Notes under the pieces: model-generated
What the model was told of the DNA's origin: nothing
The model's input: only the letters and a program-made list of their open reading frames with translations
The model's database searches: none
Origin: Diplonema japonicum
Taxonomy: Eukaryota; Protista; Euglenozoa: Diplonemea
Length of the DNA stretch: 64,000 bases
Direction of reading: 5' to 3'
Assembly: GCA_964019335.1 (NCBI GenBank)
Contig: OZ025664.1
Coordinates: forward strand, 62,001-126,000
Position numbers and translations under genes: made by a program
In this document: positions 6,449 to 60,119 of the stretch, piece by piece
How positions within the stretch are numbered: the stretch's first letter is position 1
How the letters are laid out: each line of letters starts with the position of its first letter

Positions 6449-7060
6449 CTATTTCTTGTGCTTCTTCTTGTCGAGCTTCCTGAGGTAGAAGGCGAGCTCA
6501 GCACCCTCGAGGAGGTACCCATCGGCCCTGCCCACCTGACCGGGGCGCGAGGCGATCCTGGCGAGGACCTTACCACCCTTGACCTGGTCCTCAAGAGCCT
6601 TCTCGATCTTCGAGTCACCGATGCGCGAAGCCCACCTCTTCTTCTTGGAGTCGCTGATGGTCTCGGCAACCTTGTCGGTGGCACGCTTCTTACCGAGGAG
6701 GACCCCGTAGCGTTTGTAGTACCACTGCCTGAAAGGGGAAGAGTCGATGGTGAGGACGGCACCCTTTACGATGGCCTTGGTCCTGATCATTTCGTTGCTG
6801 GTGGCGTTGTACACAACATCCAAGATCCTGGACTTCTTGGTGATGGACTGGCTTCCCCACGCGAAGTTACCGTGGTCAAGACGGAGAGCACGGAACTTCT
6901 TGTTTCCACCCCTGCACCTGATAGTGGTCACACGCACGTTGGCCGCGAGCTTGGTGGCGGCAGGGAGACGACCGAGTTCGTACTTCCTCTTCTTCGAGTG
7001 GATCTTGCGCTTCCCACCGGTCACACGACGCTTGTGGAGCCTGCTGCGAGTGATACCCAT
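6449..7060 (-). CDS. RPS8: 40S ribosomal protein S8 (eS8), copy 1
   Basis: MGITRSRLHKRR.TGGK, RGGNKKFRALRLD, SRPGQVGRADGYLLEG.EL.FY signatures. Confidence 0.97.
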   Translation of the reverse strand: MGITRSRLHKRRVTGGKRKIHSKKRKYELGRLPAATKLAANVRVTTIRCRGGNKKFRALRLDHGNFAWGSQSITKKSRILDVVYNATSNEMIRTKAIVKGAVLTIDSSPFRQWYYKRYGVLLGKKRATDKVAETISDSKKKRWASRIGDSKIEKALEDQVKGGKVLARIASRPGQVGRADGYLLEGAELAFYLRKLDKKKHKK

Positions 7061-9291: not shown

Positions 9292-9903
9292 CTATTTCTT
9301 GTGCTTCTTCTTGTCGAGCTTCCTGAGGTAGAAGGCGAGCTCAGCACCCTCGAGGAGGTACCCATCGGCCCTGCCCACCTGACCGGGGCGCGAGGCGATC
9401 CTGGCGAGGACCTTACCACCCTTGACCTGGTCCTCAAGAGCCTTCTCGATCTTCGAGTCACCGATGCGCGAAGCCCACCTCTTCTTCTTGGAGTCGCTGA
9501 TGGTCTCGGCAACCTTGTCGGTGGCACGCTTCTTACCGAGGAGGACCCCGTAGCGTTTGTAGTACCACTGCCTGAAAGGGGAAGAGTCGATGGTGAGGAC
9601 GGCACCCTTTACGATGGCCTTGGTCCTGATCATTTCGTTGCTGGTGGCGTTGTACACAACATCCAAGATCCTGGACTTCTTGGTGATGGACTGGCTTCCC
9701 CACGCGAAGTTACCGTGGTCAAGACGGAGAGCACGGAACTTCTTGTTTCCACCCCTGCACCTGATAGTGGTCACACGCACGTTGGCCGCGAGCTTGGTGG
9801 CGGCAGGGAGACGACCGAGTTCGTACTTCCTCTTCTTCGAGTGGATCTTGCGCTTCCCACCGGTCACACGACGCTTGTGGAGCCTGCTGCGAGTGATACC
9901 CAT
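9292..9903 (-). CDS. RPS8: 40S ribosomal protein S8 (eS8), copy 2
   Basis: Same protein as copy 1; CDS appears nucleotide-identical. Confidence 0.97.
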   Translation of the reverse strand: MGITRSRLHKRRVTGGKRKIHSKKRKYELGRLPAATKLAANVRVTTIRCRGGNKKFRALRLDHGNFAWGSQSITKKSRILDVVYNATSNEMIRTKAIVKGAVLTIDSSPFRQWYYKRYGVLLGKKRATDKVAETISDSKKKRWASRIGDSKIEKALEDQVKGGKVLARIASRPGQVGRADGYLLEGAELAFYLRKLDKKKHKK

Positions 9904-52704: not shown

Positions 52705-55248
52705 ATGGAAGTGGGTGGGATGCAATTAGTACCCAGCTGGAAGAGCGGAGTGCTGAAGAAGTTAGGAGGAATGGGCGGGAAGGCGATGCAGTCCAGGTGG
52801 TTTGAACTACGTGGGAATGAGATGGTGTACTACACGGAGCAGCCTAAGGGGACCATCGACCTGGGGCGGCCTGTCACAATCACAGAAGATGACGACAACC
52901 AGACGTGGACTATACACGGGCAGCACCTTGCTCACTCCTACACCCTTAGTGCCCCCGACCCCGCCACACGTGCTGCGTGGCTTAAACAAATAAGAAGGTC
53001 CATGACCGGCCCCCGTCGTGGTGAAACCGAGCAGAGGATCCACACGCTGGAGTGCGAACGCGAGGCCCTTATCGCTACCTCAGAGCAGCTCGGCCACGAG
53101 GTGCACAGCAGAGAGGAGACCATCAAGCAGCTCACCGATACCAACTCCAACCTCTTCCGGTCCACAGAAGACCTTTCCGAAAAGCTAGAAAACGAGAAGC
53201 ACGAACACCGCACCACAAACACCTCGCTGAACGACAAGACAGCTGCAGTGGCCGCCCTGACGAACACCGTTGACGCACAAAAAGCACAAATATCAAAAAT
53301 GCAGGCTGCCCTCCAGACAGCAAAAACAAAAAGCGACACAATGGCCGCTAAGGCTGCCAAGTTCGACGCTTCGTATGCAACACTGCAAGAGCAGCTGGAA
53401 GCGCTCACTAATAGCATGCAGGAAGACAACGACAGGGCAGCAGCGAGACTGAGGACCTCCGAGGCGGAAGCTGCCTCGCAGCTCGAAACAGAGCAAGAGC
53501 GATTTTTTGCGGAGCTGCAAGCAGCAAAGGCACTGGCGGCGACGAAAGATAAGGAAACGATGCGTTTGGTGCAAGAGGTAAAAGACCAGAACACAACCCT
53601 CAGTGCGCTGGAAGGAGAGGTCAGACGGAAAGCTGATCATATCAACACCTTGGAGGCACAACTAGATCACCAGAAGGAATCTGCGAGTAAAGCCATTAAA
53701 TCAATCGAAGAGGAGGCTAGGGCTAAAGCGCGTCAGTCGTGCCTGCAACAGCCACTGGTCCTTGCCGTCAAGGAGGAGGAACCGGTGGGTGCCCTGTACA
53801 GCGTCCTCGCAGAAGAAGGCGTCGCAGTTCTCGGTGCAAATGGTGAGTGCGTGGCACGACTTCCTAGAGACACCGCCGCTGAGGGCACTGCGAAGGGTGG
53901 TGTTTTGAGCATCACTGCACCTTGCACGGGACACATTCGAGAATTCGAAGGTCTCGTGGAGAAGGCAGCGAAGTGGGACCCCCTACCCGCAGCGGACATG
54001 GAGGAGGGCCAATCTGCATCCATTGCTGTGGTTAAGCATGACCACATCGCAGGCTGGGTCGAAGGTCGGGTGCTCAGCCTCAGCGACACAGGGTACACGG
54101 CCTACGTCAACAACAACAGGGTGGCCTCTGTGTTCGGGTTGGCACGGTGTAAGGTGTCCGTACGAAAGACCGAGCTGAGGGAGAGAGCTCCTAAGTGGGC
54201 ACTGTACGATGCACCCGACAGTTCAAGAACTGCCTCGAGTAGTGCGTACGACCACGGGCCTGGTTTCGGGTGCCACCGAGGTAGACTGGACAGCACTTTT
54301 GCTTGGGTAGCTGCTGAGGAGGACACCGAGCCGTGGTATCAGATCGACACTGGCGTTCGGCAGGCTGTGGGAGGTGTCGTGGTGGGTGGCTACTGGGACC
54401 TTTTCGAGGCGTACCTTACGCAGCTGGAAGTACACATCAGCAAAGACAACAACAAGTGGGCAGCACACAGCCTGCACGACGTGGACCTCTCAGAAGGGAA
54501 GGTTGACACCATCAAGTTCGACGAGTACGTTGTTTCGAGGTACATAAGAGTGGTTCCGAAGGTGTGGTACGGCGCAGCGCCTGCTATGAAAATGGGCGTG
54601 TTGGTGGACAACAGCGAGAAGCAGGAGGAGTTTGGTGGTGAGGCTTATGCACACCTGAAGCACAATAAATGGATGCGAGACGCTAAAACGGACTTAGCAC
54701 TGCTGGAGATCGAGGAGCGCCAGAAGGAACTGGTTGCCATGCACGCCGAGCTGGACAAAGGACGCAGCGGGCTTGACGCGGACATGAATGACTTCATGCG
54801 AACAAAGGCAAAACTCGCAGAGGCCAATGCAGATCTGACGCGAAACATATACACGCTGAAGGAGAAAGGCACGATGACCGTACGGCGCACAGTGCTCTTG
54901 GACCCCGAGGAGCTGTTGGAAGGCGTGGAATTAGCTGGGATAGAAGTGGCATCTGCAGTAAGCGGCCCTCTTGAGGTGGACATGAAGATTGTCAGCGTAA
55001 AGGGAACTGACGTGTTCACGGAAAACGAAGTCCGCAGCATCGTAGCTGACGAGGCACGCACCACACCGAACCAACCGGTGCCGCTTATAGTTACTTACGA
55101 GAACGAGACTGCCTTTGTGCAGAACCTCAAGGAGGAGATTAGCCTCCTCAGAGATGAGATAAAGAGGCAACATACATCCATCAACCACCTAGAAGGCAAG
55201 GCAAAGAGGGCCCTCGCTTCACAACACTCCGACGAAGTGGTGTTCTAA
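52705..55248 (+). CDS. PH domain, coiled coil, F5/8 type C (discoidin) and degenerate PDZ-like protein
   Basis: KSGVLKK..QSRWFELRG...AAWLKQIR (PH); GRLDSTFAW..EPWYQID..SRYIRVVPKVW..MKMGV (discoidin). Confidence 0.8.
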   Translation: MEVGGMQLVPSWKSGVLKKLGGMGGKAMQSRWFELRGNEMVYYTEQPKGTIDLGRPVTITEDDDNQTWTIHGQHLAHSYTLSAPDPATRAAWLKQIRRSMTGPRRGETEQRIHTLECEREALIATSEQLGHEVHSREETIKQLTDTNSNLFRSTEDLSEKLENEKHEHRTTNTSLNDKTAAVAALTNTVDAQKAQISKMQAALQTAKTKSDTMAAKAAKFDASYATLQEQLEALTNSMQEDNDRAAARLRTSEAEAASQLETEQERFFAELQAAKALAATKDKETMRLVQEVKDQNTTLSALEGEVRRKADHINTLEAQLDHQKESASKAIKSIEEEARAKARQSCLQQPLVLAVKEEEPVGALYSVLAEEGVAVLGANGECVARLPRDTAAEGTAKGGVLSITAPCTGHIREFEGLVEKAAKWDPLPAADMEEGQSASIAVVKHDHIAGWVEGRVLSLSDTGYTAYVNNNRVASVFGLARCKVSVRKTELRERAPKWALYDAPDSSRTASSSAYDHGPGFGCHRGRLDSTFAWVAAEEDTEPWYQIDTGVRQAVGGVVVGGYWDLFEAYLTQLEVHISKDNNKWAAHSLHDVDLSEGKVDTIKFDEYVVSRYIRVVPKVWYGAAPAMKMGVLVDNSEKQEEFGGEAYAHLKHNKWMRDAKTDLALLEIEERQKELVAMHAELDKGRSGLDADMNDFMRTKAKLAEANADLTRNIYTLKEKGTMTVRRTVLLDPEELLEGVELAGIEVASAVSGPLEVDMKIVSVKGTDVFTENEVRSIVADEARTTPNQPVPLIVTYENETAFVQNLKEEISLLRDEIKRQHTSINHLEGKAKRALASQHSDEVVF

Positions 55249-55403
55249 ATGCTTTGCTTGTTTCGCTTGACTGTCATCTTTCCTATCTGTGCCGACCGCG
55301 GTCTGGCCCTTGCATTTCTTTCTGTAGTTACGTTGTTGTATAATGTTTTTCTTTTTCTTCTATTTTCCTTATTTAAGGACGCCCTCCCCCACAGCCCCCT
55401 CGT

Positions 55404-55490
55404 GTGATGAGAAATTCCGTTTAATAGTCTTCTTTCCAATGAAAATCATTTCCTGATTCCAACAACAGATAGCTGACAGTTTCATTCTGA
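55404..55490 (+). ncRNA. Box C/D snoRNA family A, copy 1 (others 55691-55777, 56271-56357, 57247-57333, 57844-57931)
   Basis: GTGATGA box C, CTGA box D, ATGA D' preceded by GTCTTCTTTCC, complementary to conserved LSU rRNA GGAAAGAAGAC. Confidence 0.85.
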
Positions 55491-55533
55491 AGACGTTTTC
55501 TTTTGCATCCCTGGTATTTCCATCTTTGATTCT

Positions 55534-55630
55534 CTGATTAAAACACTTTACTTGACATTACTACCTGTCTTAGGTGAGGGGAGGCGAAGCCCCCCTTCTC
55601 CCTGTGCTGATCACTTACCCGCGCTTATGA
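55534..55630 (+). ncRNA. Box C/D snoRNA family C, copy 1 (others 55870-55966, 56135-56232, 57426-57522, 57710-57807)
   Basis: CTGATTA box C variant; ATGA box D preceded by TTACCCGCGCTT, complementary to LSU AAGCGCGGGUAA; TTGACATT complementary to the neighbouring LSU AAUGUCAA. Confidence 0.85.
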
Positions 55631-55998
55631 GAAGCCGTCTTGTGGGCAGGAACCGCTCATGCATGCACAATGTGGATGATGTCGTGTCCAGTGATGAAAA
55701 ATTCCGTTTAATAGTCTTCTTTCCAATGAAAATCATTTCCTGATTCCAACAACAGATAGCTGACAGTTTCATTCTGAAGACAGACAAAGCCGCACCTTCC
55801 ATCCCCCGATTGCCGTCTTTCCAAAAACCCAAGTTCCACGTTGTGCTTTCCCGCCCTTTCACGTGTTCTCTGATTAAAACACTTTACTTGACATTACTAC
55901 CTGTCTTAGGTGAGGGGAGGCGAAGCCCCCCTTCTCCCTGTGCCGATCACTTACCCGCGCTTATGAGAAGCAGCCTTGCGAGCAGGAACCGCTCCGAA

Positions 55999-56097
55999 GT
56001 GATGACATTGAATACACCGCAACGGTCTGAGTCCTGTCACGAGGATTAGAAACGTATTGACGTCTGGGAGGCCTCTTTTGGTCTCTTGGGCAGCTGA
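55999..56097 (+). ncRNA. Box C/D snoRNA family B, copy 1 (copy 2 at 57555-57653); target not identified
   Basis: GTGATGA, internal CTGA, terminal CTGA, terminal stem TCCGA/TCGGA. Confidence 0.7.
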
Positions 56098-56468
56098 TCG
56101 GAATAATTTTCTTTTTGCTTTTTTTTTCTTGCCACTGATTAAAACACTTTACTTGACATTACTACCTGTCTTAGGTGAAGGGGTCAACAAGGCCTCCTTC
56201 TCCCAATGCCGATCACTTACCCGCGCTTATGAGGCACTCTCTATGTCGGGGGGGGGGGGGCACGTGTCCAGTGATGAGAAATTCCGTTTAATAGTCTTCT
56301 TTCCAATGAAAATCATTTCCTGATTCCAACAACAGATAGCTGACAGTTTCATTCTGAGAACCGATTTATGGGAAAAGGGAAAGCAAAGAATGAAAGAAGA
56401 ATTTTGACAATCAGCACCAAAACCCGCTTCAGGTCTTTGTCGAAAAACAAAAAAGAGAAGGGAAAAAG

Positions 56469-56527
<59 letters not shown>

Positions 56528-56556
56528 ACACAAGAAACCATGCTCCAGTTTGCTGT

Positions 56557-57015
56557 TGTCCTTCCTCACTGCTTGCGATGAGCAAGTGGAGGCGGGGAGT
56601 GGGTCGTGCTCTGGGGGGAAAGTACCCTGCCTCCGACTCGTGCCGTTTTCGACGCTGCAAGGAAGAGGATGTGAAGGCCTGGCCCGCGCCGAAGGGACGA
56701 GCTGCAGCGACGGGGACTCGCGCACTCACTGAGACAGGTGCTGCGAGACATCCTCTTCTGCTCCCACTCTCTGTCCCTCCGCTGCTCCGATCGCATGCAA
56801 GCCGTGAAGGTCGCCTGAAAACTCGTATCGAAAAGCGTCGTGTGCGAGGCAGGTTCTGTGGTGCCCAATGCGAGGCGGCAGGTATTCGAACTGGTGCAGT
56901 CGTGCCCATTCAGGTGGAGGCCTGGAGAGGTTGTGGTGGTCACGGCGGTGGCATGAACGGGTGGAAGGTCAAGTCTGTGCGGCGAAGGACACCCTGTGAG
57001 GTACTAGATCCCCGC
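56557..57015 (+). ncRNA. Candidate large structured RNA (RNase MRP/P-like)
   Basis: GGAAAGTACC motif and several nested long-range helices; lies inside the snoRNA cluster. Confidence 0.45.
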
Positions 57016-58028
57016 TTTGCGTTGTCCACACCAGACACAAGGCCCTTCCTCCTCTTTAACACATATTAAATTACAAACATCGGAAGCTTTTTTCCAAACG
57101 CCGATGTTGTGTACCCACCCGGTTGCGGCGCAATCTTATCTAATCTGGACGAAAACTTGGGAGTCTCACCATCTCGTTTACTCTTCTTTTTCTTATTGAT
57201 ATTTATTCTTTTTCTGCAGTTCTGTCGAGAATGCTTGCTGTGTCCAGTGATGAGAAATTCCGTTTAATAGTCTTCTTTCCAATGAAAATCATTTCCTGAT
57301 TCCAACAACAGATAGCTGACAGTTTCATTCTGAAGACAGACAAAGCCGCACCTTCCATCCCCCGATTGCCGTCTTTCCAAAAACCCAAGTTCCACGTTGT
57401 GCTTTCCCGCCCTTTCACGTGTTCTCTGATTAAAACACTTTACTTGACATTACTACCTGTCTTAGGTGAGGGGAGGCGAAGCCCCCCTTCTCCCTGTGCT
57501 GATCACTTACCCGCGCTTATGAGAAGCAGCCTTGCGGGCAGGAACCGCTCCGAAGTGATGACATTGAATACACCGCAACGGTCTGAGTCCTGTCACGAGG
57601 ATTAGAAACGTATTGACGTCTGGGAGGCCTCTTTTGGTCTCTTGGGCAGCTGATTGGAATCATATTTTTGTTTCTGTTTTTTGCTTTCTTTGCTTTTTTT
57701 TTCTTGCCACTGATTAAAACACTTTACTTGACATTACTACCTGTCTTAGGTGAAGGGGTCAACAAGGCCTCCTTCTCCCAATGCCGATCACTTACCCGCG
57801 CTTATGAGGCACTCTCTATGTCGGGGGGGGTGCCACGTGTCCAGTGATGAGAAATTCCGTTTAATAGTCTTCTTTCCAATGAAAATCATTTTCGTGATTC
57901 CAACAACAGATAGCTGACAGTTTCATTCTGAGAACATTCTTAATAATCCGATTTGCTTTGTGATAGTTCACTCTGCCACTTTGCTGAATAGCCACAGCCA
58001 ACAGGCATCACGATGACATGAACATGGA

Positions 58029-60119
58029 ATGAACGTTTCAGCAGCGAATGTGAAGCAACAGCCTGCAAACCCTTCAAATGTGAAGCAGGCACCTGCATCC
58101 CCGCATTCACTTTCCGAGCGCTCTGCAGTTGACATCAGCGGTCCTGTGGTGTCGCTTCCACGCAGCCTAGGGGCGTCAAAAAAGAGCTTGGGATCCAAAA
58201 ATATTAAGAGTTCGGCAGCTGCTGGTATTACACCTGCGTCAAGCCCCTCGCACGCGAGCAAGGTAAGTGCGGTGAGCAAGACAGCACCCATTAAGGCTGC
58301 TGTGGGTGTGAAGAGTTTGCCCCGACCGGGTGTGAAGAGCATGCCTATCAAGGGGGTCACATCCCCTTCTTTGTTACAAACGTCAGAACACCAGCTCAAA
58401 CGAGATGCCATCAAACTCATGGCTGTGCAGCAAGGTCGGCGGATGAGCGCCCACCGCCAGAGCAGCAACTCCACCACATCACGTACGGACCCTGTGCCAC
58501 GGTACCTCTCGATGTCAGGTCCGTCGCCCTTGGCTCTGCCCACATCACAGGGCAGCGTGCCTGCACCCTCTCCCTCCTACGAGGTAGCGAAGGACACGGT
58601 CCGCAAGGTGCGCGAGGCCATCGTATCCAAACACGGCACTCTGGCTGCATGGAGCAGTGACCTCAACATCGATGTACGGTCCAATGACCACGTTCTTCCC
58701 AAGCAAACTTTCCGTAATTCCCTCATCGGCCTTGGGGTTGGCGATGCTGTGGCCGACGGCATGGTGCGTGCAGTGGCCATCGATGAGAAGGATGTTTCGG
58801 TGTCGAAGTTCTTCAAGATAGCCACAGAAGGCTTCCATGAATCGGTGGTGAAGGTAAAACACGTGACAGTACAGGCCTGCAGTGGTGTGCGGGCCATAGT
58901 TGCTATATCGCCGAGCGACGGCGAAGAGAAAACCCTCATGGCTACTGCATCCCGTCTAGGTGTACGGAACCCTTATAGCGTGCAAGTGGTCAACGGCAGT
59001 GGCGGCAGGGTGTCCCTCACTTACCACACTGTGACGGACGGCGAGGTTTACTTCTTTAAAAACGTCAAGCAGGATACTGAAGCCGTAGAGGCCAGCACAT
59101 CGACTGCAACGCTCCCCGCACCGAAAGAAACACTGTACGCGGACTGCGCGACGAGCACAGCATCTCTGAAGCCACAGCTGTTTGAGACAGGCGCGGCATC
59201 ACCCCCTCAGAAGCGCCAGGTGCAAACTCCAGTGGAGCAGACGAAAGTAGATCTCGCGCAAGTGCACACACAAACCGATGTGCCAAGCAGCGACAAGCAG
59301 ACAGTCGCAGCAAGCGACGAGGAGCGCGGCGTGCATCTTGGGTACGATTCGTCTTCGAACAGCACGGAGCCAACTATACAAGTTGCGAGGCCACCACTGA
59401 CTAAAAAGAGTCTGCTCACAAGTCAGGTGCCAACTTACAAAGAAGAGAGGCTTATTCGTGCAGAGAGAGAGGTGAGCAATGTGCCCCCCACTCCCGCCAT
59501 GACAAAACCGAGGTTTGCAATGCCGACAAGAGAGGAACCAGTGATGCTACCACAGCCGATGCCCATGCTTCGTACTCCGCGTGCAGGTGACTTGTCGCTG
59601 CCTTTCGATCATGTGGTGCACCAATCTACGTCCCCCGGTGTTTCGGACCACTTCGGTGCTGCCTTCGGCGAGCAGCTGCGTTCAGAGAGGCTTCGTAGAG
59701 GGCTTCCTTTTGAGGAGTCTAATAGTTTGTTTTCGGGTAGGTTACTAGCCCCAGCTGCCCCAGCAATCGCTACACCAGCACCTCACGTGGCGTGGTCACC
59801 TCAAAGGGTTGTCCCTTATGCTTCAAAGGCGCCGCTCATCACTGCATCGTACCAAACGTACGAGATACGCGTTACACGTGTGAACCTCTCTTTACCTGTA
59901 GGCATCCATGTCGTGGGTGTGGTCGTTGAAGGCGTCGCCAGTCGCAGCCCTGCTGAGCTGGCGGGCATCAAGCCTGGTATGATGCTGCATGCCATCGATG
60001 GCCATCCCGTTGCCTCCTATGACTCAATCCAGGTATGTGACAGGCGAAAGGGTCGAATAAAACAGGAACGTCTCAAAGCAGCCTCCGCTAGCATCATCTT
60101 CTTGATTTCAGTCCCGTAG
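58029..60119 (+). CDS. Low-complexity protein with C-terminal PDZ domain; in-frame intron 60033-60065
   Basis: PVGIHV..VVEGVASRSPAELAGIKPGM.LHAIDGHPV. Confidence 0.75.
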   Translation: MNVSAANVKQQPANPSNVKQAPASPHSLSERSAVDISGPVVSLPRSLGASKKSLGSKNIKSSAAAGITPASSPSHASKVSAVSKTAPIKAAVGVKSLPRPGVKSMPIKGVTSPSLLQTSEHQLKRDAIKLMAVQQGRRMSAHRQSSNSTTSRTDPVPRYLSMSGPSPLALPTSQGSVPAPSPSYEVAKDTVRKVREAIVSKHGTLAAWSSDLNIDVRSNDHVLPKQTFRNSLIGLGVGDAVADGMVRAVAIDEKDVSVSKFFKIATEGFHESVVKVKHVTVQACSGVRAIVAISPSDGEEKTLMATASRLGVRNPYSVQVVNGSGGRVSLTYHTVTDGEVYFFKNVKQDTEAVEASTSTATLPAPKETLYADCATSTASLKPQLFETGAASPPQKRQVQTPVEQTKVDLAQVHTQTDVPSSDKQTVAASDEERGVHLGYDSSSNSTEPTIQVARPPLTKKSLLTSQVPTYKEERLIRAEREVSNVPPTPAMTKPRFAMPTREEPVMLPQPMPMLRTPRAGDLSLPFDHVVHQSTSPGVSDHFGAAFGEQLRSERLRRGLPFEESNSLFSGRLLAPAAPAIATPAPHVAWSPQRVVPYASKAPLITASYQTYEIRVTRVNLSLPVGIHVVGVVVEGVASRSPAELAGIKPGMMLHAIDGHPVASYDSIQVCDRRKGRIKQERLKAASASIIFLISVP

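What the first reader, a model, noticed from the sequence alone, without database searches (positions are those of the whole stretch)
56557..57015. Large structured RNA candidate (RNase MRP/P-like) embedded in a snoRNA cluster
Seen: a single-copy GC-rich island between two duplicated snoRNA blocks with nested complementary pairs: GCGGGGA 56592-98 / TCCCCGC 57009-15; AGTACC 56621-26 / GGTACT 57000-05; CTGCCTC 56627-33 / GAGGCAG 56846-52; TTTTCGA 56646-52 / TCGAAAA 56828-34; and a perfect 11-bp GAAGAGGATGT 56662-72 / ACATCCTCTTC 56748-58. A crossing pair GAGTGGGT 56597-604 / GCCCATTC 56904-11 would give the P2/P4 pseudoknot order. Known: GGAAAGTACC resembles CR-I (GGAAAGUCC) of RNase P/MRP RNAs, and T. 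brucei MRP RNA is encoded in a snoRNA cluster. Inference: a divergent MRP/P RNA or a new nucleolar RNA. Atypical points: little room for P3, the normally bulged P4 U would be paired, and CR-V is non-canonical.
Basis: partly seen in the sequence, partly recalled or inferred. Interest (0 to 1): 0.8.

Follow-up and report, generated by a model that had tools for sequence, protein, structure and literature searches.

The report
Divergent diplonemid RNase MRP-like RNA gene
A 450-base GC-rich stretch inside a cluster of small nucleolar RNA genes of a marine protist (a diplonemid) is likely the gene for its RNase MRP RNA, a ribosomal-RNA-cutting ribozyme already reported in its trypanosome relatives, here with an oddly altered predicted catalytic helix and a second, diverged copy elsewhere in the genome.

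Summary
The window is from a diplonemid; the island lies on the sense strand of a real multi-copy box C/D snoRNA cluster. The best evidence is comparative. The 520-nt T. brucei RNA TB10Cs1C2, labelled MRP in a published supplement, shares in the same order: AAAGU-N5-GCC (CR-I, P4, P5), a 15-nt motif (13 of 15 identical; 19 of 5000 position-matched shuffles), a hairpin, and the P4 3' strand. Like the candidate, it has little room for P3. Public contigs from three studies show a second, diverged copy whose similarity stops at the P1 3' strand. Verdict: probably the diplonemid MRP RNA homologue (about 0.77), probably still working as MRP (0.62); a variant of a known kind.

The parts
56575..57035 (+). 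Predicted RNA gene, MRP-like (core 56589-57020; both ends inferred)
   Evidence: GC 0.62 island; motif order shared with T. brucei TB10Cs1C2 (by eye); similarity to second copy ends at 57020
56589..56598 (+). P1 5' strand (pairs 57009-57018)
   Evidence: 10-bp duplex, -18.6 kcal/mol, 2 of 1000 shuffles of the upstream region do as well
56617..56631 (+). CR-I / P4 5' strand (56617-28) followed directly by the 3-nt P5 5' strand (56629-31)
   Evidence: AAAGT-N5-GCC occurs once on both strands of the window; same arrangement in the T. brucei RNA (by eye)
56632..56945 (+). Expanded, variable specificity-domain region, including the 11-bp helix 56662-72/56748-58 and the hairpin 56717-47
   Evidence: predicted helices; organism B contig covers 56672-56853 with 5 substitutions and 31 gap letters, 28 of them one insertion behind 56741; fold not resolved
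56946..56960 (+). P5 3' strand plus CR-IV-like motif CGGTGGYATGAAYGG
   Evidence: only match in the window even with 2 mismatches; 13 of 15 identical to T. brucei (by eye); 19 of 5000 position-matched shuffles, 107 of 300 unconstrained; inside the piece shared with the second copy
56973..56990 (+). P19-like hairpin (4-bp base, variable loop)
   Evidence: all 8 gap letters and 3 of the 6 substitutions of the second copy fall in 56978-56991; by eye the base stem is kept, with one U-G to U-A change
56991..57008 (+). CR-V / P4 3' strand, non-canonical
   Evidence: 6 contiguous WC pairs 56621-26/57000-05 with U56623 opposite A57003; the bulged-U register gives two mismatches
57009..57020 (+). P1 3' strand, where similarity to the second copy stops
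55404..55490 (+). Box C/D snoRNA A (further copies 55691-55777, 56271-56357, 57247-57333, 57844-57931)
   Evidence: 5 copies, 95% mean column identity, RTGATGA and CTGA boxes
55534..55630 (+). Box C/D-like snoRNA B (further copies 55870-55966, 56135-56232, 57426-57522, 57710-57807), variant boxes TGATTA / ATGA
   Evidence: 5 copies in two subtypes; weak, non-significant Rfam snoU36a match E = 6.5
55999..56097 (+). Box C/D snoRNA C (second copy 57555-57653)
   Evidence: C box and CTGA boxes; weak, non-significant SNORD31 match E = 8.7
55346..55377 (+). Polypyrimidine tract + AG, likely trans-splice acceptor opening the unit that holds the candidate (next one at 57188-57219)
   Evidence: the only two such sites between the flanking ORFs

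Best explanation
The island is likely the gene for the RNA subunit of a diplonemid RNase MRP, homologous to the trypanosome RNA TB10Cs1C2, and it is predicted to be co-transcribed with its snoRNA neighbours, cut out as a roughly 450-nt nucleolar RNA and folded into a P1/P4/P5 pseudoknot core that would cleave pre-rRNA in ITS1. Shown: position on the sense strand of a C/D snoRNA cluster between two acceptor-like sites; CR-I, the CR-IV-like motif, a hairpin and the P4 3' strand in the same order as in the T. brucei RNA; complementarity of P1, P4 and P5; a second diverged copy. Inferred: transcription and RNA ends, the pseudoknotted fold (it would need proteins to win over a more stable alternative fold), nucleolar location, catalysis, and the ITS1 substrate (from yeast and human MRP).
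For: Host is a diplonemid (rpS8 79% identical to Diplonema papillatum, 87% to its best unnamed hit), sister group of kinetoplastids. The T. brucei RNA labelled MRP (520 nt) sits in snoRNA cluster TB10Cs1. By eye it has AAAGU + 5 nt + GCC, then 180 nt on (327 here) the motif CGGUGGYAUGAAYGG, a hairpin and, 47 nt on (38 here), the P4 3' strand; GCC pairs with the motif's GGU in both, giving the 3-bp P5 next to CR-I that names as MRP-specific. A 13-of-15 match near the 3' anchor arises in 19 of 5000 shuffle pairs. Only 18 nt separate P2-5' from CR-I in T. brucei, so a shrunken P3 is shared. P1 beats 998 of 1000 shuffles. The second copy keeps 56946-57020 with indels confined to the P19 loop and diverges right after P1.
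Against: No Rfam RNase MRP or RNase P hit at E <= 10 in three scans. Global fold no better than shuffles. MRP-like folds score -145 to -151 kcal/mol before P4, against -188 for a two-domain fold that uses both P1 strands otherwise. No convincing P2: the strand after the motif pairs at only -5.0 kcal/mol next to CR-I, and its best partner 56557-71 is chance-level (161 of 1000) and would cross P1. P4 is non-canonical and the best duplex of its 3' strand is weaker than 883 of 1000 shuffles. No AnAGUnA CR-IV and no GARAR-capped P8 after CR-I. The 15-mer match was found by eye and is unremarkable without the positional constraint (107 of 300). One organism-B change (G56745A) breaks a predicted pair (by eye). 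A 2025 paper states that trypanosomal orthologues of RNase MRP could not be identified.
Confidence: 0.62

Rival explanations
1. MRP-derived but catalytically disarmed: this copy descends from MRP RNA, yet the A opposite the conserved P4 uridine removes the bulge that binds catalytic metal (role recalled from RNase P work, not from a call), so it is a decaying paralogue or a non-catalytic scaffold or guide, with the other copy possibly the active one.
For: P4 departs from the T. brucei pattern at three places: A57003 opposite U56623, a C-A mismatch, CUAG for CUnA. P2, P3 and P8 are weak or missing. A second copy exists. The window's P4 letters are not an assembly slip: contigs in 3 of the 4 runs laid (the three of organism A) match 56540-57179 with no difference.
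Against: CR-I, P5 and the CR-IV-like motif are intact; the second copy has no indel in the P4 3' strand (all 8 gap letters lie in 56978-91), although 3 of its 6 substitutions are not located by the tool.
Confidence: 0.15
2. A different large nucleolar RNA (for example a long C/D-like processing snoRNA) that folds into the two-domain minimum-energy structure, the MRP-like motifs being partly chance.
For: Helix 56570-603/56763-99 (-54 kcal/mol, 2 of 100 shuffles) and helix 56866-78/57012-24 dominate the predicted ensemble. A one-mismatch C-like box lies at 56575.
Against: It does not explain three motifs in the T. brucei order and spacing. No perfect C/D pair: no CTGA between 56815 and 57296.
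Confidence: 0.12
3. No RNA gene: a GC-rich spacer carried along with cluster duplications.
For: MFE z = 0.27; no Rfam hit; organism B is about 97% identical in a snoRNA-plus-spacer piece too (5 of 165), so its similarity shows little selection.
Against: In the second copy a 75-nt block is kept while both neighbours are replaced, ending exactly at the P1 strand; motif chain shared with a distant kinetoplastid RNA.
Confidence: 0.07
4. A nuclear RNase P RNA rather than MRP.
For: The segment between P5-3' and the P2-3' position reads as eight nucleotides with G2 and A7, the RNase P length, and GARAR is not found on a P8.
Against: The T. brucei RNA labelled MRP has the same segment; P5 adjacent to CR-I is an MRP trait; T. 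brucei nuclear RNase P is a single protein (PMC3807811, listing and abstract start only); no Rfam RNase P hit.
Confidence: 0.04

Closest known systems
T. brucei TB10Cs1C2 'MRP' RNA, 520 nt (PMC3273796, supplementary file 2)
   Same: Lies inside a C/D-rich snoRNA cluster; AAAGU-N5-GCC; 15-nt motif before the P2-3' position; hairpin, then GAGG..CU.A; 3-bp P5; very short P2-to-CR-I interval; similar overall length.
   Different: T. brucei has a clean P4 with a bulged U and a 10-bp P2, and perfect C and D boxes at its ends (by eye); here P4 has an A opposite the U, P2 is weak, the CR-I-to-motif distance is 327 against 180 nt, and the boxes are at best one-mismatch.
Canonical eukaryotic RNase MRP RNA (Rfam RNase_MRP; human RMRP, yeast NME1; features from PMC13184271, PMC1796607, PMC7351766)
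   Same: P1, CR-I, P4 strand pair at both ends, P5 adjacent to CR-I, P19-like hairpin, long variable S-domain.
   Different: No model hit; no two-helix P3; no GARAR P8; no six-nucleotide AnAGUnA CR-IV; likely polycistronic rather than a stand-alone Pol III gene.
Euglenozoan MRP RNAs of Alm Rosenblad, Lopez and Samuelsson 2021 (PMC8677039; title seen in reference lists only; content recalled)
   Same: As recalled, that paper reports MRP RNAs across Euglenozoa, Diplonema included, found by non-standard searches.
   Different: Could not be compared: the text is not held, so whether this P4 form or the duplication is already described is open.
Nuclear RNase P RNA
   Same: Shared C-domain motifs; eight-nucleotide-like CR-IV.
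   Different: P5 next to CR-I; no Rfam hit; CR-II/III not recognised (not tested formally).

Membership tests
RNase MRP RNA | Match to the Rfam covariance model | tested here: not met
   No hit at gathering threshold in the window, none at E <= 10 in 55200-58100 or 56535-57065; filters were on
RNase MRP RNA | P1 joining the 5' and 3' ends | tested here: met
   56589-98/57009-18, 2 of 1000 shuffles; competing helices exist
RNase MRP RNA | CR-I followed by a P4 pseudoknot with CR-V | tested here: inconclusive
   GGAAAGU present and 6 WC pairs possible, but duplex strength is chance-level and the crossing P2 is not established
RNase MRP RNA | Bulged U in P4 and CUnA end of CR-V (feature recalled; seen in the T. 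brucei print) | tested here: not met
   U56623 faces A57003; the bulged register gives two mismatches; CUAG instead of CUnA
RNase MRP RNA | P2 closed by the strand after CR-IV | tested here: inconclusive
   -5.0 kcal/mol next to CR-I; -14.7 with 56557-71 but 161 of 1000 shuffles and crossing P1
RNase MRP RNA | P3 with two helices and an internal loop | tested here: not met
   Only 18 nt between P1-5' and CR-I; T. brucei has 18 nt between P2-5' and CR-I (by eye)
RNase MRP RNA | 3-bp P5 immediately adjacent to CR-I | tested here: met
   56629-31/56947-49, same letters in T. brucei; three pairs only, no covariation
RNase MRP RNA | P8 with GARAR loop | tested here: not met
   GARA(R) strings at 56618, 56731, 56745, 56817, 56830, 56925; none caps a hairpin just after P5. 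Several lineages lack it
RNase MRP RNA | Six-nucleotide CR-IV, AnAGUnA | tested here: not met
   No AnAGnnA or AGTnA in 56540-57030; replaced by the motif shared with T. brucei
RNase MRP RNA | P19 hairpin between P2-3' and CR-V | tested here: met
   56973-90; stem base kept and loop length changed in the second copy (by eye)
RNase MRP RNA | Binds Pop1 and shared P/MRP proteins; cleaves ITS1 | not testable with these tools
Homologue of T. brucei TB10Cs1C2 | Same motifs in the same order with compatible spacing, in a snoRNA cluster | tested here: met
   the comparison itself was by eye, not an alignment
Box C/D snoRNA | Terminal RUGAUGA and CUGA boxes | tested here: not met
   One-mismatch C-like box at 56575; no CTGA near the 3' end
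Telomerase RNA | Template for TTAGGG repeats | tested here: not met
   No CCCTAA or TTAGGG in 56340-57240; the host's telomere repeat is assumed
Nuclear RNase P RNA | Rfam model match; P7 in place of P5 | tested here: not met
   P5 adjacent to CR-I

The most novel reading that the evidence does not exclude
Diplonemids keep two diverged MRP-derived RNAs in snoRNA clusters in which the catalytic P4 bulge is paired off and P3 and P8 are lost while a euglenozoan-specific, RNase-P-length CR-IV motif is kept: an RNase P/MRP-family ribozyme turned into a non-catalytic or differently catalytic rRNA-processing RNA.
Probability: 0.13. Interest if true: 0.8.

Novelty: new variant of a known kind. Interest (0 to 1): 0.45.

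Why it matters
How euglenozoans cut ITS1 is unsettled: no P/MRP protein subunits were found in trypanosomatids and a 2025 paper still lists RNase MRP as unidentified there, while an RNA labelled MRP is abundant in T. brucei. A homologue in the sister lineage pins down which elements are kept across Euglenozoa (CR-I, P5, the 15-nt motif) and which are dispensable (P3, GARAR), gives a seed for a lineage-specific model that Rfam lacks, and, with an altered P4 and two copies, offers a direct test of whether the euglenozoan RNA is still a ribozyme.

Tried and rejected
Rfam scans, three, no MRP/P hit. Pattern scan of metagenome contigs with the shared motif plus P4-3': 64 loci, 0 of 64 judged homologous; most read as protein-coding matches; 9 were rescanned with Rfam without a relevant hit and 3 (L133, L134, L141) were read and rejected. 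The same pattern gave 0 in viral contigs, a looser one saturated at 80 chance loci; a stricter one gave 0 in prokaryote genomes. So no alignment for covariation could be built. Sequencing runs: no RNA holder listed; uneven or missing cover in some runs was not used. Overlapping ORFs 56368-57069 (+) and 56349-56909 (-): only sub-threshold Pfam matches on the poly-lysine stretch from the A-run, or none; rejected as genes. tRNA/tmRNA: none. Telomerase template: none. snoRNA neighbours could not be matched to TB10Cs1 members (2 of 4 probes absent, the others uninformative). Three look-ups of earlier findings returned nothing. Literature searches for a diplonemid MRP RNA found no held paper describing one; the key 2021 paper and Piccinelli 2005 are not held.

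Full report
Setting. The window is eukaryotic, with long same-strand gene runs. Its ribosomal protein S8 is 79% identical to that of Diplonema papillatum and about 55-60% to non-euglenozoan hits, so the host is a diplonemid. No whole genome is held. The finding lies between a PH/discoidin-domain ORF ending at 55248 and a PDZ-domain ORF starting at 58029, both on +. Between them are three kinds of box C/D-type snoRNA in 5, 5 and 2 copies and two polypyrimidine-AG sites, at 55376 and 57218. The island (GC 0.62 against 0.42-0.46) thus sits inside one likely trans-spliced unit with snoRNAs, after a long A-run.

Observation. The six helices are there. As a set they are not unusual for a sequence this GC-rich: MFE z = 0.27, 59 of 100 shuffles as stable; count of helices of 7 or more WC pairs 39 of 300; nested set 34 of 300; the 11-bp helix 11 of 300. 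P1 is the exception: the last 12 nt pair with 56589-98 better than 998 of 1000 shuffles of the upstream region. Rfam gives nothing for MRP or RNase P at any threshold tried.

Comparison with T. brucei. Supplementary file 2 of PMC3273796 prints TB10Cs1C2, labelled MRP, 520 nt, in snoRNA cluster TB10Cs1 (file 1 could not be searched). I compared it by eye. It has AAAGU, five P4 nucleotides and GCC; 180 nt later the motif CGGUGGYAUGAAYGG, whose GGU pairs with that GCC and which is followed at once by the 3' strand of a 10-bp P2; then a hairpin; then the P4 3' strand, 47 nt after the motif. The window has the same chain: AAAGT-N5-GCC at 56619 (the only one on either strand of the window), the motif at 56946-60 (the only match even with two mismatches), a hairpin at 56973-90 and the P4 3' strand 38 nt after the motif. 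GCC/GGU is the 3-bp P5 adjacent to CR-I that PMC13184271 names as MRP-specific (passages).

Other copies. Eleven of 12 listed runs hold the stretch or part of it; none is on record as RNA. In organism A, contigs from three studies match 56540-57179 without a difference, and a separate 698-800-nt contig matches 56946-57020 with 6 substitutions and 8 gap letters, then 57065-57110 and 57150-57179, the pieces between being replaced. This is a second, diverged locus. All its gap letters and 3 of its 6 substitutions fall in 56978-91; by eye the 4-bp stem base is kept (one U-G becomes U-A) and the loop is longer. The other 3 substitutions are not located by the tool, so its P4 3' letters are not known exactly. 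Similarity ends at 57020, the end of the P1 strand. Its 30-nt loose end resembles 56927-47 with indels; its 5' half was not returned. Organism B has one low-depth 213-nt contig over 56672-56853 with 5 substitutions and a 28-nt insertion in the hairpin 56717-47. By eye C56761T keeps a pair as G-U, G56745A breaks one, two listed changes are at unpaired sites. B is equally close in a snoRNA-plus-spacer piece (5 of 165), so this carries little weight.

What does not fit. P4 forms six contiguous pairs only if the conserved U56623 pairs with A57003; with the U bulged, two mismatches follow, and CR-V ends CUAG. That the bulged U serves catalysis is recalled, not read here. The strand after the motif has no good partner next to CR-I (-5.0 kcal/mol); its best partner, 56557-71, is chance-level (161 of 1000) and would cross P1. 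There is no AnAGUnA and no GARAR-capped P8 (features from PMC1796607 section 7, which also lists lineages lacking them). The secondary structure is therefore not settled. A search for distant homologues failed: 0 of 64 metagenome loci were homologous, 0 hits in prokaryote genomes, so covariation could not be tested.

Mechanism. Most likely the cluster is transcribed as one unit, the RNA is trimmed out like its neighbours, and a P1/P4/P5 core with CR-I, the CR-IV-like motif and CR-V forms the RNase P/MRP-type centre (described for yeast in PMC7351766, passages) that cuts ITS1 (PMC6411936, passage). Only the gene context, the motifs and the complementarities are shown; transcription, fold, partners and catalysis are inferred. 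I put homology to the trypanosome RNA at about 0.77, of which 0.62 still working as MRP and 0.15 disarmed or decaying; 0.12 another nucleolar RNA, 0.07 spacer, 0.04 RNase P.

What is known. T. brucei is credited with an MRP homologue (PMC6411936, PMC6562600, PMC3091756, PMC3273796; passages), while no P/MRP proteins were found in trypanosomatids (PMC1636426, passages) and PMC12702573 lists RNase MRP as unidentified (passage). Alm Rosenblad et al. 2021 (PMC8677039) was seen only as a title; I recall that it reports MRP RNAs throughout Euglenozoa including Diplonema, so the gene class is probably in print. Eight searches found no held paper describing a diplonemid MRP RNA. The main supplementary PDF of PMC13184271, with MRP alignments, was too large to read and may bear on which features excavate MRP RNAs keep; its 8 readable files name no euglenozoan. 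PMC9181182, PMC9849065, PMC10747355, PMC12699882 and the Eukan preprint were seen as passages and added nothing.

Verdict. It works like, and probably descends from, RNase MRP RNA, but fails several canonical membership tests, so I file it as a new variant of a known kind. Interest 0.45: useful for an open question in euglenozoan rRNA processing, with a small chance of a disarmed ribozyme.

Noticed in passing
window 57065-57110: A hairpin (z = -2.06, 7 of 200 shuffles) is kept in the second copy with 2 differences in 46 nt while both neighbours are replaced; possibly another small RNA or a processing signal.
   Followed up: partly
window 55534-55630 and four further copies: snoRNA B has variant terminal boxes (TGATTA, ATGA) and two subtypes that differ only in the central hairpin.
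   Followed up: partly
window 55684 and 57833: Contigs with other upstream sequence join snoRNA A here (loose ends), so further clusters with this snoRNA exist in the genome.
   Followed up: no
window 56575-56581 and 57032-57035: One-mismatch C-like and D-like boxes flank the candidate; the T. brucei RNA has perfect boxes and was named as a C/D RNA. Could hint at snoRNP-protected ends; unproven.
   Followed up: partly
window 56583-56595 and 56866-56878: Short internal repeat gives the 3' end two alternative partners, a possible conformational switch or chance.
   Followed up: partly
window 6449-7060 and 9292-9903 (-): Two tandem rpS8 genes encoding identical 203-aa proteins.
   Followed up: no
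window 56467-56527: A run of about 60 A directly upstream of the candidate; public contigs tend to break there.
   Followed up: no
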